A stretch of 64,000 nucleotides of DNA, taken from an uncultured Pseudomonadota bacterium (GTDB lineage: Bacteria; Pseudomonadota; Alphaproteobacteria; JACZXZ01). The position numbers and the translations under genes are program-made. The notes beneath the pieces are model-generated. The model was not told the DNA's origin and did not search any database. It worked only from the letters and a program-made list of their open reading frames with translations. The DNA is taken from the NCBI GenBank assembly GCA_963749075.1, contig CAVVLJ010000016.1:224001-288000 (forward strand). Reading direction: 5' to 3'. Below are positions 1-1,865 of this stretch, piece by piece (within the stretch, counting starts at the first letter, position 1; each line of letters starts with the position of its first letter).

Positions 1-1059
1 CAGTGTTGGCCAAGCTTCGCGGAAAATTTCGCGAAGCTCCGCTTCGAGTGCGTTGCCTTTGAGCGCCCTTTCGGAGACTTCCAGATTGAACCGTTGATGG
101 ATGTCCTGCCCTTCGGCCAGCCATAAATCCTTGAATGCTTTGCGAGCTGCCCCGAATGTGACCGTTCGTTGCGTCTGAGCGATATCGACGATGATCGACC
201 GTTCTCGCTTGTCAAGGTGCCTCTGATTGCCGCCGACGATGCGCAATTTGTTGATCTGCTCGAGCATCACCCATTGCTGTGTCGACCAAGCGGCCTTCGG
301 CGCGGGTAAATCATCGGGGCAGAAGCGGCAATGGCCCAAGGTATTGAGGCGCCAGAAGACTGGCCGCTGGTGGAACACGATGTATTCGACAGCCTTCCTG
401 CGCTCGTCCGTCAGGACGCTCGGATGGTACTTGGATTGGGCCTCCCACAGGCGGGCAAGCTCGTCCTGGAACATCGTCCGGCTGGTGTGCCGCTTCCGCT
501 TTCGTTCGCTGGCCGGTAGCTCGGCGAGATATGTTCCCAATGTCTTTCCCGCAAGATGGCTTTGCAAACCCTCAATCTCGGCTTTAATGCCTTTTGTCTC
601 GGCGTCATCCTCGGTGGTCTCGTCGAAGTCGCGCCCGAGGAAGCCACGCCTTTTCCCTAGGTGATAGATGGCCCGGCCGAGTTGGCAAGGTTCGAGCCGC
701 TCTGCCAGACCCCGTCGCCGTAGGTTATAGGGGTCGTTGGCCCCAGTCTTCTCCATCGCCGTCGCCTTAGCCCAATCGCTACCCTTCTCGGCGGAAAAGG
801 CTGGCAGCAAGCCCATTTCATGCAAGAGCTGCCCGAGTAGCCTCCGACGGGCGCGACGGCGGCGTAGCGTCCGCCGAGCCAGTCGCTTCGTTCGACGAAT
901 CTGGTTAGGCGGGTAACTTGTTGTCTGCTGGCGGACGACGCCTTCGGGAAAAATCCGGACGCCCATGGCGGCAACGCTGCCGGTCGAAGACGCTTCGCTC
1001 CAGTCGACCAGCGCCCAACCGACCGATGTGGTGCCAAGATCCAGGCCGAGGATGCGCAT
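1..1059 (-). CDS. cas9: Type II-C CRISPR endonuclease Cas9, N-terminal 353 aa (continues beyond left window edge)
   Basis: Manual translation from ATG at 1059 (SD-like GAAGGGGGT upstream) is open to position 1: MRILGLDLGTTSVGWALVD (RuvC-I, catalytic D7), GVRIFPEG, Arg-rich bridge helix RRTKRLARRTLRRRRARRRLL, DPYNLRRRGL, LGRAIYHLGKRRGF, HQRPVFW..LGHCRFCPDDLPAPKA, EQINKLRI - all characteristic II-C Cas9 motifs. Absent from ORF track because there is no stop in the window. Confidence 0.96.
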   Translation of the reverse strand, partial: MRILGLDLGTTSVGWALVDWSEASSTGSVAAMGVRIFPEGVVRQQTTSYPPNQIRRTKRLARRTLRRRRARRRLLGQLLHEMGLLPAFSAEKGSDWAKATAMEKTGANDPYNLRRRGLAERLEPCQLGRAIYHLGKRRGFLGRDFDETTEDDAETKGIKAEIEGLQSHLAGKTLGTYLAELPASERKRKRHTSRTMFQDELARLWEAQSKYHPSVLTDERRKAVEYIVFHQRPVFWRLNTLGHCRFCPDDLPAPKAAWSTQQWVMLEQINKLRIVGGNQRHLDKRERSIIVDIAQTQRTVTFGAARKAFKDLWLAEGQDIHQRFNLEVSERALKGNALEAELREIFREAWPTL

Positions 1060-1094
1060 GCCACCCCCTTCGTCCCTCGTCGCCTATTTCGCGC

Positions 1095-1123
1095 TTGAGG
1101 CGAACATCTACAAATGTTAACAT
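1095..1123 (+). promoter_or_regulatory. sigma70-type promoter for tracrRNA
   Basis: TTGAGG (1095-1100)-N17-TAACAT (1118-1123); predicted TSS ~1130-1131, exactly at the start of the putative anti-repeat. Confidence 0.65.
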
Positions 1124-1130
1124 GTTTTTG

Positions 1131-1255
1131 TAGCAAATCGAGGATCGACCGCTTATCGCAGGCAAAACGTAAGCGTCGTTCTGTGCGGGCTGGGCATCCC
1201 AATGACGCATCCACTGCCCACTCTATCCAAACCCCGGCTTATCGCCGGGGTTTGT
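1131..1255 (+). ncRNA. tracrRNA (type II-C), divergent from cas9
   Basis: Immediately upstream of cas9; TAGCAAATCGAGGATCGACCGCTTATCGCAGGCAAA anti-repeat-like 5' end, GCGTCGTT/AATGACGC stem enclosing TGTGCGGGCTGGGCATCCC, terminal hairpin. Resembles my recollection of the Parvibaculum lavamentivorans tracrRNA (needs alignment to confirm). Confidence 0.85.
1228..1255 (+). terminator. Terminal hairpin/terminator of tracrRNA
   Basis: CAAACCCCGGC-TTATC-GCCGGGGTTTG perfect 11-bp stem. Confidence 0.75.
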
Positions 1256-1355
1256 CGTAGGAGGGCATTTCTCGCTCGGCATCACTTACCCTAGGCAAGC
1301 GCTCGCCGCTGGCGCAAAATGCGCCATGAGCAGAGCGATTATCGGGGGAGCGGGC

Positions 1356-1865
1356 ATGCCGCAGGAGAGCGCCGTCGAGGCCAAGCCGGCGGTTACGGAA
1401 GTCGTCGGGCGCTTCGCCGAGCGGGCGCCCTTCAAGGCCGCGGTCGAGGCGCTCCTGGCCGCCGGCTTCGAGCGCAGCGATCTCTCGGTGCTCGACAGCC
1501 ACGACTCGCTCGCCGCCGCGGAAGGGAAGGACGAGAGCTGGCGCACGACGCTCGCCGGGCTCGTGGGCGAGGCCAAGTATCTCGAGCCGATCACTGCCGC
1601 CGGCCTCATCCTCCTCGCCTCGGGCGCCATCGGCGCCGCCGTTGCGGGCGCCATCGCGGCCGGCCTCGGCGGCATGGCGGCCTTCGAGCTCCTGCGCGAG
1701 GTGCGCGCCACGCCCCACTTCCGCGAGTTCGCCACGGCGCTCGAGCACGGCGCCGTGCTGCTGTGGGTGCTGGCCGAAACTCCCGATCGCCAGCGGCTCG
1801 CGCGCGAAGCCCTGGCACGCCAGGGTGCCGCCGACATCCACGTCCACACGCGCGCCGCCCGCTGA
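1356..1865 (+). CDS. Hypothetical membrane-associated protein with Gly/Ala zipper
   Basis: ATG 1356 after GGGGGAG; host-like codon usage; hydrophobic GAIGAAVAGAIAAGLGG stretch and C-terminal GAADIHVH, as in stress-17M/DUF1269-like proteins. Confidence 0.7.
   Translation: MPQESAVEAKPAVTEVVGRFAERAPFKAAVEALLAAGFERSDLSVLDSHDSLAAAEGKDESWRTTLAGLVGEAKYLEPITAAGLILLASGAIGAAVAGAIAAGLGGMAAFELLREVRATPHFREFATALEHGAVLLWVLAETPDRQRLAREALARQGAADIHVHTRAAR

What the first reader, a model, noticed from the sequence alone, without database searches (positions are those of the whole stretch)
1..1255. Unannotated type II-C cas9 with a divergent tracrRNA at the window edge
Seen: the minus frame from ATG 1059 is open to base 1 and encodes RuvC-I (D7 intact), the bridge helix and REC motifs; the ORF track shows only shadow ORFs here. 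A promoter-anti-repeat-stems-terminator unit lies 70 nt upstream on the other strand, and the region is visibly less GC-rich than the flanking genes. Known: II-C loci are typically tracr-cas9-cas1-cas2-array. Inference: an uncharacterised, possibly compact Cas9 ortholog whose guide scaffold can be read directly; the cognate repeat should contain roughly GCGGTCGATCCTCGATTTGCTA. No cas1/cas2/array is in this window, so it may be a full system or a stand-alone/repurposed Cas9.
Basis: partly seen in the sequence, partly recalled or inferred. Interest (0 to 1): 0.85.

Follow-up and report, generated by a model that had tools for sequence, protein, structure and literature searches.

The report
Ordinary type II-C CRISPR-Cas9 locus
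The window edge holds the start of a complete, typical type II-C CRISPR-Cas9 immune system with its guide-scaffold RNA, a new but ordinary member of a large family of soil and water bacteria.

Summary
Window 1-1059 (minus strand) is the first 353 codons of a Cas9 gene (TIGR01865, E 9e-66). Window ~1130-1255 (plus strand) is a divergent tracrRNA.

Left of base 1, the MAG's contig carries the rest of cas9, then cas1 (NMENI type), cas2 and a 12-repeat array. The 36-nt repeat pairs with the anti-repeat at -56 kcal/mol, against -21 +/- 3.6 for shuffles.

In this assembly cas9 is split by one extra base just before the HNH histidine. An independent contig from the probable source run lacks that base. 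Without it the frame is 1041 aa, and all relatives read straight through. I read the break as an assembly error (about 0.88).

The same layout holds in 68 of 83 related loci. The tracrRNA has a conserved promoter and two covarying, interleaved helices, which form a pseudoknot.

The cassette is a ~5.7 kb low-GC insertion that is absent from same-genus genomes. No protospacer was found, so the PAM is unknown.

Verdict: a new member of a known kind, of modest interest.

The parts
1..1059 (-). cas9, first 353 codons (the part inside the window): RuvC-I with Asp7, bridge helix from Arg55, start of the REC lobe. The gene continues left of the window to L009 9933 (L009 coordinate = window coordinate + 12000; L009 = G000:C16:212001-226000). 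In the assembly it appears as two ORFs, L009 11245-13059 (604 aa) and L009 9933-11447 (504 aa). With one base left out it is one 1041-aa frame.
   Evidence: ORF open to base 1. TIGR01865 E 9.4e-66. The two ORFs match model positions 2-596 (E 1e-113) and 595-965 (E 4e-62). HNH_4 and RuvC_III in the second half. 1041-aa read-through with D7, E516, H596, N619, H741 and D744.
1..1 (.). Window edge, used as an anchor for the parts of the locus that lie LEFT of the window (given in L009 coordinates, minus strand unless stated):
- frame-break site: L009 11278, one extra A in an AA pair on the + strand, just before the HNH Glu-His codons;
- cas1: L009 8987-9961, with a likely ATG 21 nt inside the listed ORF;
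- cas2: L009 8650-9003;
- CRISPR array: L009 7832-8601, 12 identical 36-nt repeats and 11 spacers of 29-32 nt. The crRNA strand is inferred to be +, and each repeat ends in TGCTACAGT;
- left border of the inserted island: about L009 7557.
   Evidence: Break: the Logan contig of run X1 (depth 8.8, otherwise identical over 1774 nt) leaves the base out, and relatives read through. cas1 TIGR03639 E 7.6e-83 and cas2 TIGR01573 E 5.2e-18. Array. Repeat-end motif in 42 of 57 distinct repeats of the clade, against 1.4 in shuffles. Island border.
1095..1123 (+). tracrRNA promoter: -35-like TTGAGG (1095-1100), 17-nt spacer, -10-like TAACAT (1118-1123) preceded by TG
   Evidence: Read. It scores 8 of 12, below the scan's threshold (one search found none). 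Positional conservation: TTG 32-38 nt upstream of the conserved G in 41 of 44 loci (shuffles 5.6); TAnnnT ending 3-10 nt upstream in 25 of 44 (shuffles 7.7).
1130..1255 (+). tracrRNA, about 126 nt, transcribed away from cas9
   Evidence: Duplex with the repeat -56.2 kcal/mol. DNA conservation of 76-91% starts at 1128-1130 in relatives whose Cas9 is 48-53% identical. Fold. No Rfam family matched.
1130..1164 (+). Anti-repeat: pairs with the 36-nt CRISPR repeat, leaving two small internal mismatched regions
   Evidence: A compensatory change between repeat and anti-repeat occurs in the closest relative, L092.
1173..1208 (+). Helix 1 (nexus-like): 1173-1177 pairs with 1204-1208
   Evidence: The inner three pairs are kept in 43-44 of 44 sequences, with 3, 17 and 8 double changes.
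1191..1220 (+). Helix 2: 1191-1195 (inside the loop of helix 1) pairs with 1216-1220 (outside helix 1), giving a pseudoknot
   Evidence: 97.3% of cells paired. 15 CG-to-GC and 7 CG-to-UA double changes.
1229..1258 (+). Terminator hairpin (1229-1238 pairs with 1244-1253) followed by UUUGU. It lies at the right edge of the inserted island, whose border is between about 1256 and 1290.
   Evidence: Present in the MFE and centroid folds. The helix varies with many double changes in relatives, 62-73% paired. Island border.

Best explanation
This is a complete, probably functional type II-C CRISPR-Cas9 adaptive-immunity locus. It was acquired as a ~5.7 kb low-GC island by a GC-rich soil bacterium known only as a MAG.

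Inferred mechanism: a sigma-70-type promoter at window 1095-1123 drives a ~126-nt tracrRNA from about 1130 to the hairpin ending at 1253. The tracrRNA is transcribed away from cas9. Its first ~35 nt pair with the 36-nt CRISPR repeat. Its distal part folds into a nexus-like helix whose GC-rich loop pairs with a downstream segment, giving a pseudoknot. A terminator hairpin follows.

crRNAs are read from the strand opposite to the cas genes. They probably start from an extended -10-like element at the end of each repeat, as in Neisseria meningitidis and Campylobacter jejuni.

A Cas9 of 1041 aa, with all RuvC and HNH catalytic residues, binds the dual RNA and cuts matching DNA next to an unknown PAM. 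Cas1 and Cas2 add spacers.

The one-base frame break in cas9 in this assembly is most likely a consensus error.

Shown: gene content, order, family membership, RNA complementarity, and conservation and covariation across relatives. Inferred: transcription start sites, crRNA strand and biogenesis, activity, and PAM.
For: Family hits:
- Cas9 TIGR01865: E 1e-113 and 4e-62 for the two halves, covering model positions 2-596 and 595-965.
- cas1_NMENI E 7.6e-83 and cas2 E 5e-18.
- HNH_4 and RuvC_III.

Array and guide RNA:
- 12 identical repeats.
- Repeat:anti-repeat duplex -56.2 kcal/mol, against -21.2 +/- 3.6 for shuffles.

Frame break:
- The independent contig of run X1 lacks the extra base.
- Without it there is one 1041-aa frame ending at the same stop, with D7, E516, H596, N619, H741 and D744 present.
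- Full-length single-ORF relatives of 1019-1057 aa reach up to 77% identity. An 82% hit of 943 aa is shorter.
- Nine aligned relatives read straight across the break.

Conservation in relatives:
- In 68 of 83 related loci with arrays, the best match to the locus's own repeat outside the array lies on the opposite strand 45-289 nt (median 52) upstream of cas9. The array is downstream of cas9 in 84 of 84 loci scored for that, the 83 plus this locus.
- tracr DNA is 76-91% identical to relatives, with conservation starting at window 1128-1130.
- Structure on 44 tracrRNAs: 78.4% of cells paired against 67.4% shuffled; 111 double-change cells against 42.6; 0 of 500 shuffles reach either value. Helix 2 is 97% paired.
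- Promoter boxes are conserved in position.
- The repeat-end TGnTAnnnT motif is in 42 of 57 distinct repeats.

Precedents, from passages read:
- Repeat-embedded promoters in II-C: PMC5965381.
- tracrRNA upstream of cas9 in the opposite direction, and the C. jejuni nexus-loop pseudoknot: PMC6546382.
Against: - The deposited assembly itself has the frame break. Only one other contig, from a run that may be the same sample, covers the site; runs X2 and X3 do not.
- No RNA data: no listed run is on record as RNA. All transcript ends are therefore inferred.
- The simple scan found no promoter or terminator at its thresholds. The terminator's U-tract is short (UUUGU).
- No spacer has a credible target in the MAG, the phage collection, the plasmid collection or the 161 related loci. 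Activity and PAM therefore have no support from natural targets.
- The repeat-end motif also lies in the part of the repeat that pairs with the tracrRNA. Its conservation may reflect Cas9 or tracrRNA binding rather than promoter function.
- The covariation controls do not remove phylogenetic relatedness (caveat stated).
Confidence: 0.88

Rival explanations
1. The frame break is real. cas9 is a recently inactivated pseudogene, or is split into a 604-aa RuvC/REC piece and a piece carrying the HNH His, RuvC-III and PI. The locus would then be decaying and no longer able to cut DNA.
For: The MAG assembly shows two overlapping ORFs in different frames. Only one other contig covers the site, and it may come from the same sample. 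No spacer has a known target.
Against: The Logan contig at depth 8.8 lacks the extra base and is otherwise identical over 1774 nt. The rest of the locus shows no decay: 12 identical repeats, intact cas1 and cas2, an intact tracrRNA, and all catalytic residues kept in both pieces. The MAG has 23 contigs and one other single-base difference from that run within the same 5.9 kb, which fits ordinary consensus errors.
Confidence: 0.09
2. Both alleles coexist in the population, or the ribosome shifts frame, so that Cas9 production is switched or tuned (phase variation or programmed +1 frameshifting).
For: Two assemblies linked to one sample disagree by one base at this site.
Against: The site is an AA pair, not a homopolymer or repeat tract of the kind that phase-varies. 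No relative has a break here. Contigs cannot give allele frequencies.
Confidence: 0.02
3. A stand-alone or repurposed Cas9 without an adaptation module or array.
For: Nothing beyond the fact that the 64-kb window itself holds no cas1, cas2 or array.
Against: cas1, cas2 and a 12-repeat array complementary to the anti-repeat lie directly downstream of cas9, outside the window.
Confidence: 0.01

Closest known systems
Alphaproteobacterial type II-C Cas9 clade that includes Parvibaculum Cas9. P. lavamentivorans Cas9 had its PAM determined by Ran et al. 2015, as cited in bioRxiv 10.1101/2024.04.09.587696 (passage read).
   Same: Same size class (1037 aa for the Parvibaculum sp. MAG protein P0053, against 1041 aa here). 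Same locus order. The same divergent tracrRNA about 50 nt upstream of cas9 (L017, a Parvibaculum sp. MAG: anti-repeat 52 nt upstream). Closely related 36-nt repeat and tracrRNA core.
   Different: Only 44% identity over the N-terminal 594 residues. This subclade has an extra 7-nt insertion before helix 1 and a longer linker between helices 1 and 2. The PAM here is unknown. I did not compare against the characterised P. lavamentivorans protein itself, only against MAG proteins that their sources name Parvibaculum sp.
Neisseria meningitidis type II-C system. The best solved-structure hits are 6jdv and 6jdq; the PDB table gives only 'CRISPR-associated endonuclease Cas9', so their identity as Nme1Cas9 is recalled. 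crRNA biogenesis from Zhang et al. 2013, as reviewed in PMC5965381 (passages read).
   Same: cas9-cas1-cas2-array with a Cas1 of the NMENI type. 36-nt repeats. An extended -10-like motif at the repeat end, which fits crRNA transcription from each repeat. The crRNA strand is inferred to be opposite to the cas genes.
   Different: Distant in sequence: phmmer E 3e-41 for the N half and about 1e-18 for the C half, matching in patches only. Whether the repeat promoters work here is untested.
Campylobacter jejuni Cas9 guide RNA (PDB 5x2g). Its nexus loop forms a pseudoknot or triple helix with the 3' part of the tracrRNA (PMC6546382 and PMC9533551, passages read).
   Same: The same topology is inferred here from covariation. 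The GC-rich loop of the first post-duplex helix pairs with a segment downstream of that helix.
   Different: The protein is only weakly similar (5x2g E 1.1e-18, N-terminal part only). The sequences of the RNA elements were not compared. The three-dimensional fold here is not known.

Membership tests
Type II-C CRISPR-Cas | Cas9 effector with RuvC-I/II/III and HNH domains and their catalytic residues | tested here: met
   TIGR01865 above its cut-off for both halves. HNH_4 and RuvC_III. D7, E516, H596, N619, H741 and D744 are present and nearly invariant in relatives.
Type II-C CRISPR-Cas | Uninterrupted cas9 reading frame | tested here: inconclusive
   Broken by one base in the MAG assembly. Intact (1041 aa) in the version carried by the Logan contig of run X1. 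No raw reads were available to count alleles.
Type II-C CRISPR-Cas | Adaptation module of cas1 and cas2 only, with no csn2 (II-A) and no cas4 (II-B) | tested here: met
   cas1_NMENI and cas2 hits. cas9, cas1 and cas2 abut or overlap. Only 48 nt separate cas2 (from L009 8650) from the last repeat (to L009 8601), leaving no room for a fourth gene.
Type II-C CRISPR-Cas | CRISPR array whose repeat is complementary to an anti-repeat in a nearby tracrRNA gene | tested here: met
   12 repeats. Duplex -56.2 kcal/mol, against -21.2 +/- 3.6 for shuffles. The same arrangement holds in 68 of 83 related loci. A compensatory change between repeat and anti-repeat occurs in the closest relative, L092.
Type II-C CRISPR-Cas | RNA-guided, PAM-dependent double-strand DNA cleavage | not testable with these tools
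No protospacers were found from which to infer a PAM.
II-C systems with repeat-embedded crRNA promoters (N. meningitidis / C. jejuni type) | Promoter element inside each repeat, and crRNAs with primary 5' ends inside spacers | tested here: inconclusive
   A TGnTAnnnT motif sits at the repeat's 3' end here and in 42 of 57 distinct repeats of the clade, with none on the other strand and 1.4 in shuffles. Transcription itself cannot be tested, because no RNA run is listed.
Pseudoknotted II-C tracrRNA scaffold (C. jejuni type) | Nexus-helix loop base-paired with a downstream tracrRNA segment | tested here: met
   Helix 1 and helix 2 interleave. Helix 2 is 97.3% paired, with 15 and 7 double changes at two pairs. 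The inner three pairs of helix 1 are paired in 43-44 of 44 sequences, with 3, 17 and 8 double changes. This is covariation evidence only, with no structure.

The most novel reading that the evidence does not exclude
The whole alphaproteobacteria-centred II-C Cas9 clade (hundreds of loci, including Parvibaculum-type Cas9) uses a guide scaffold built around a strictly conserved pseudoknot. In it, an invariant GCGGGCU.GGC..CCC core has its loop pairing with a segment just before the terminator. The clade also combines a fixed divergent tracrRNA promoter with repeat-embedded crRNA promoters. If so, this scaffold would be a defined, portable RNA module. It would be a structural relative of the C. 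jejuni triple helix that has not been described for this clade in the papers my two searches listed (listings and a few passages only).
Probability: 0.5. Interest if true: 0.35.

Novelty: new member of a known kind. Interest (0 to 1): 0.25.

Why it matters
It adds one more natural Cas9 ortholog of about 1041 aa. Its tracrRNA, repeat, probable transcript ends and conserved scaffold helices are now defined, so a single-guide RNA could be designed and its PAM measured.

The comparative result may help people who predict tracrRNAs or engineer II-C guides. That result is a positionally fixed tracrRNA promoter, a covarying pseudoknot and a repeat-end promoter-like motif across dozens of loci.

The case also shows that a 'broken' cas9 in a MAG can be a one-base consensus error. 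Biologically it is an ordinary, horizontally acquired defence island.

Tried and rejected
- Rfam search of the locus (evalue mode): no tracrRNA family matched, only chance-level hits.
- The consensus promoter/terminator scan found nothing at its thresholds.
- RNA evidence: no RNA holder listed.
- Runs X2 and X3 do not cover the frame-break site, so they give no second opinion.
- Spacer targets, none credible:
  - own genome: best partial match 23 of 26 nt;
  - phage collection: 11 records, all E >= 0.2;
  - plasmid collection: 21 records, all E >= 0.02;
  - 161 related loci (1.85 Mb): best 20 of 22 nt, and no shared spacers.
- Exact-pattern scans of the viral contig collection with spacers were not run, because they would have required typing several neighbouring stretches of the array.
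- RNAalifold on the full tracrRNA alignment recovered only helix 2 plus a spurious long-range helix involving the anti-repeat. The structure was therefore written by hand and counted.
- The search for related loci with the first alignment failed because the two half-rows left no conserved columns. It worked after the alignment was rebuilt.
- Family-level search: only 1 of 10 other genomes of the same family has a Cas9 (33% identical), and 0 of 5 in the same genus. Close kin therefore gave no help with the cas9 break.
- Supplementary files of the papers cited were not seen. Faure et al.'s supplementary tracrRNA alignments might already show this clade's scaffold.
Full report
LOCATION AND OBSERVATION

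The window is G000:C16:224001-288000, on a 1.38-Mb contig of a 5.49-Mb, 23-contig MAG (completeness 96.3%, contamination 5.2%). Public runs that hold the stretch are labelled soil metagenome.

The minus-strand frame from ATG 1059 is open to base 1 (353 aa). It scores E 9.4e-66 (222.8 bits, cut-off 100) against NCBIfam TIGR01865, the Cas9 equivalog. The Pfam REC-lobe model Cas9_a is just under its cut-off on this fragment and just over it on the 604-aa ORF.

A DNA search of the genome with window 1-1300 found 12 copies of window 1129-1164 in reverse-complement orientation, 3.4-4.2 kb to the left.

THE REST OF THE LOCUS (L009 = C16:212001-226000; L009 coordinate = window coordinate + 12000)

Going left from the window, the contig carries:
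- the remainder of cas9 (to L009 9933);
- cas1 (L009 8987-9961; TIGR03639 cas1_NMENI, E 7.6e-83);
- cas2 (L009 8650-9003; TIGR01573, E 5.2e-18);
- after 48 nt, an array of 12 identical 36-nt repeats with 11 spacers of 29-32 nt (L009 7832-8601).

There is no room for, and no trace of, csn2 or cas4. This is therefore a type II-C layout.

THE FRAME BREAK

In the assembly cas9 is two overlapping ORFs, of 604 aa and 504 aa, in different frames. The first ends ten out-of-frame codons after '...NGQFDV'. The second carries 'EHIWPRSRSLDNSFTNK...', the HNH core.

The two pieces match the Cas9 model back to back, at positions 2-596 and 595-965. A single base therefore separates them.

I laid the contigs of three public runs on the locus:
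- The contig of run X1 (flagged as the possible source sample; depth 8.8) leaves out one base at L009 11278. It has no other difference over 1774 nt.
- Runs X2 and X3 do not cover that position.

Leaving that base out gives one frame of 1041 aa, from the ATG to the stop of the second ORF.

A search of 5.8 billion proteins returned 308 hits at E <= 1e-10, among 8000 scored candidates:
- The best non-self hits are unnamed metagenome proteins at 82% (943 aa), 77%, 77%, 77%, 73% and 70% identity. Those from 77% down are 1031-1045 aa.
- NCBI-named MAG Cas9s follow at 44-49% (Pseudolabrys sp., Proteobacteria, Defluviicoccus, Parvibaculum sp., Beijerinckiaceae, Roseiarcus).

Nine of these, aligned with the two halves, read straight across the break. 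Their consensus there is FDVEHIWPRSRSLDNSF. The Glu-His pair, rather than the Asp-His pair seen in the aligned solved chain, is nearly invariant in this set.

In read-through numbering the catalytic residues are D7, E516, H596, N619, H741 and D744.

I conclude that the break is most likely a consensus error of the MAG. A real, very recent frameshift remains possible at about 0.09.

RELATION TO SOLVED STRUCTURES

- N half: best hits are 6jdv, 6jdq and 8ja0 at E about 3e-41.
- C half: best hits are 9ar4, 8uza and 8jtj at E 1e-25 to 1e-27.
- All of these are Cas9 chains of 1082-1095 aa. I recall them, without a call to confirm it, as Neisseria- and Geobacillus-type II-C enzymes.
- 5x2g (C. jejuni, as named in PMC6546382) scores E 1e-18.

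THE tracrRNA

The repeat and window 1130-1164 form a duplex of -56.2 kcal/mol, against -21.2 +/- 3.6 (minimum -32.6) for 500 shuffles. For comparison, Faure et al. give a median of -39.4 kcal/mol for II-C hybrids (PMC6546382, passage read).

Orientation follows from two facts. The anti-repeat is complementary to the + strand of the array, and it is followed on the + strand by a hairpin at 1229-1253 and UUUGU. So tracrRNA and crRNA are both + strand, opposite to the cas genes.

I fetched 160 related loci: 80 from species-representative genomes (of 502 confirmed relatives) and 80 from metagenomes (of 163).
- A script found arrays of at least 3 repeats in 90 of the 162 loci examined, which include this locus and G001.
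- 83 of the related loci had a repeat of at least 30 nt and a located cas9.
- In 68 of those 83, the best match to the locus's own repeat outside the array lies on the opposite strand 45-289 nt (median 52) upstream of the cas9 start.
- In 6, an extra repeat copy masked the search. 9 were weak or located elsewhere.
- The array is downstream of cas9 in 84 of 84 loci scored for that, the 83 plus this one.

This layout is a known option for type II loci (PMC6546382).

The tracr DNA is 76-91% identical to relatives whose Cas9 N half is only 48-53% identical. The similarity begins at window 1128-1130. In L092, the closest relative (77%), the repeat and the tracrRNA 5' end carry matching changes.

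PROMOTERS

The simple scan found no promoter or terminator in window 1-1500 at its thresholds.

Across 44 aligned tracrRNA loci:
- a TTG starts 32-38 nt upstream of the conserved first G in 41 of 44 (shuffles 5.6);
- a TAnnnT ends 3-10 nt upstream in 25 of 44, with a mode at 6-7 nt (shuffles 7.7).

Here these boxes are TTGAGG (1095-1100) and TG-n-TAACAT (1118-1123). That puts the start at about 1130.

For crRNAs, the repeat ends in TGCTACAGT. A TGnTAnnnT motif lies within 2 nt of the repeat's 3' end in 42 of 57 distinct repeats of the clade. There are none on the other strand, and shuffles give 1.4.

This matches the repeat-embedded promoters described for N. meningitidis and C. jejuni (PMC5965381, passages read). 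However, the motif overlaps the tracrRNA-pairing part of the repeat, so promoter function is an inference.

SCAFFOLD STRUCTURE

RNAalifold recovered one covarying helix. I added a second helix and the terminator by hand and counted pairs on the 44 sequences.

Whole structure:
- 78.4% of cells paired, against 67.4% shuffled;
- 111 double-change cells, against 42.6;
- covariation score 0.354, against 0.177;
- 0 of 500 shuffles reached any of these values, and all slid controls were lower.

Individual helices:
- Helix 1 (window 1173-1177 / 1204-1208): the inner three pairs are kept in 43-44 of 44 sequences, with 3, 17 and 8 double changes.
- Helix 2 (1191-1195 / 1216-1220): 97.3% paired, with 15 CG-to-GC and 7 CG-to-UA double changes.

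The 5' strand of helix 2 lies inside helix 1 and its 3' strand lies outside. The two therefore form a pseudoknot around an invariant G-rich/C-rich core.

The same topology is reported for the C. jejuni guide RNA (PMC6546382; 'triple helix' in PMC9533551). The terminator helix is less well aligned (62-73% paired), but it varies with many double changes. No Rfam family matches the RNA.

GENOMIC CONTEXT

- GC content is 55-62% over cas9-cas1-cas2 and 65-74% in the flanks.
- The flanking genes are housekeeping types: an M24 peptidase on the left and a TPP-dependent enzyme on the right.
- In 4 of 5 same-genus genomes the two flanks are 236-252 nt apart on one contig. In the fifth they are on different contigs.
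- Homology to two empty sites stops at L009 7556 and resumes at window 1374, with a short shared motif near window 1290.
- The cassette is therefore a ~5.7 kb insertion, with the tracrRNA terminator at its right edge.
- 0 of 5 same-genus genomes, and 1 of 10 genomes of the family, have any Cas9.
- Synteny of the flanks shows that the island belongs to this genome and is not a binning contaminant.

TARGETS

No spacer has a credible match in the MAG, the phage and plasmid collections, or the related loci. The PAM is unknown.

VERDICT

The observation and the core interpretation are correct. What is there is a complete and typical type II-C system: a new member of a large, mostly metagenomic clade. 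The cas9 break is almost certainly an assembly artefact.

The comparative description of the clade's tracrRNA (fixed promoter, pseudoknot) is the most interesting by-product, and it has a precedent in C. jejuni.

Scores: interest 0.25; novelty: new member of a known kind.

Noticed in passing
window 1114-1123: The tracrRNA -10 box lies in a perfect 10-nt palindrome, so the cas9 strand also reads TG-n-TAACAT about 55 nt upstream of the cas9 ATG. This could be a back-to-back promoter for cas9. The palindrome is not kept in the closest relative, L092.
   Followed up: partly
L009 7793-7830 (left of the window): A perfect GC-rich hairpin directly abuts the first repeat, at the end of the array far from the cas genes. 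It lies inside the ~275 nt of island-specific sequence left of the array. It may be a terminator for the neighbouring gene or a leader-like element.
   Followed up: no
window 1113 and 1203 (L009 13113 and 13203), run X2: A second sample of the same study holds a near-identical locus that diverges upstream of window 1113. That point is in the promoter / cas9 5' region and shows as a loose end of 31 nt. The locus also lacks one base at window 1203, seen at a contig end at depth 3.3. It is probably a related strain.
   Followed up: no
L172 (G006:C136:90300-91100), about 320-470: The empty site of a same-genus genome holds a long inverted repeat (about 35-nt arms) between the two flanking genes. 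It is absent from the occupied site here.
   Followed up: no
window 1326-1865 (+): The first gene right of the island is a 179-aa ORF with no Pfam hit. Its first ~16 codons are not alignable with the same-genus orthologues, where homology starts at window 1374. The insertion may have remodelled its 5' end or its start codon.
   Followed up: no
A3 alignment, rows L041, L042, L043, L054, L057, L039: A subclade of tracrRNAs has a 4-8 nt insertion inside the anti-repeat (a larger bulge). The same rows change the C-G pair of helix 2 to U-A.
   Followed up: partly
L094 16228-16372: A 13-nt part of spacer 3 matches L094 three times at 66-nt spacing, beyond the end of the array found there (14071). 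This suggests a second repeat array in that related locus.
   Followed up: no
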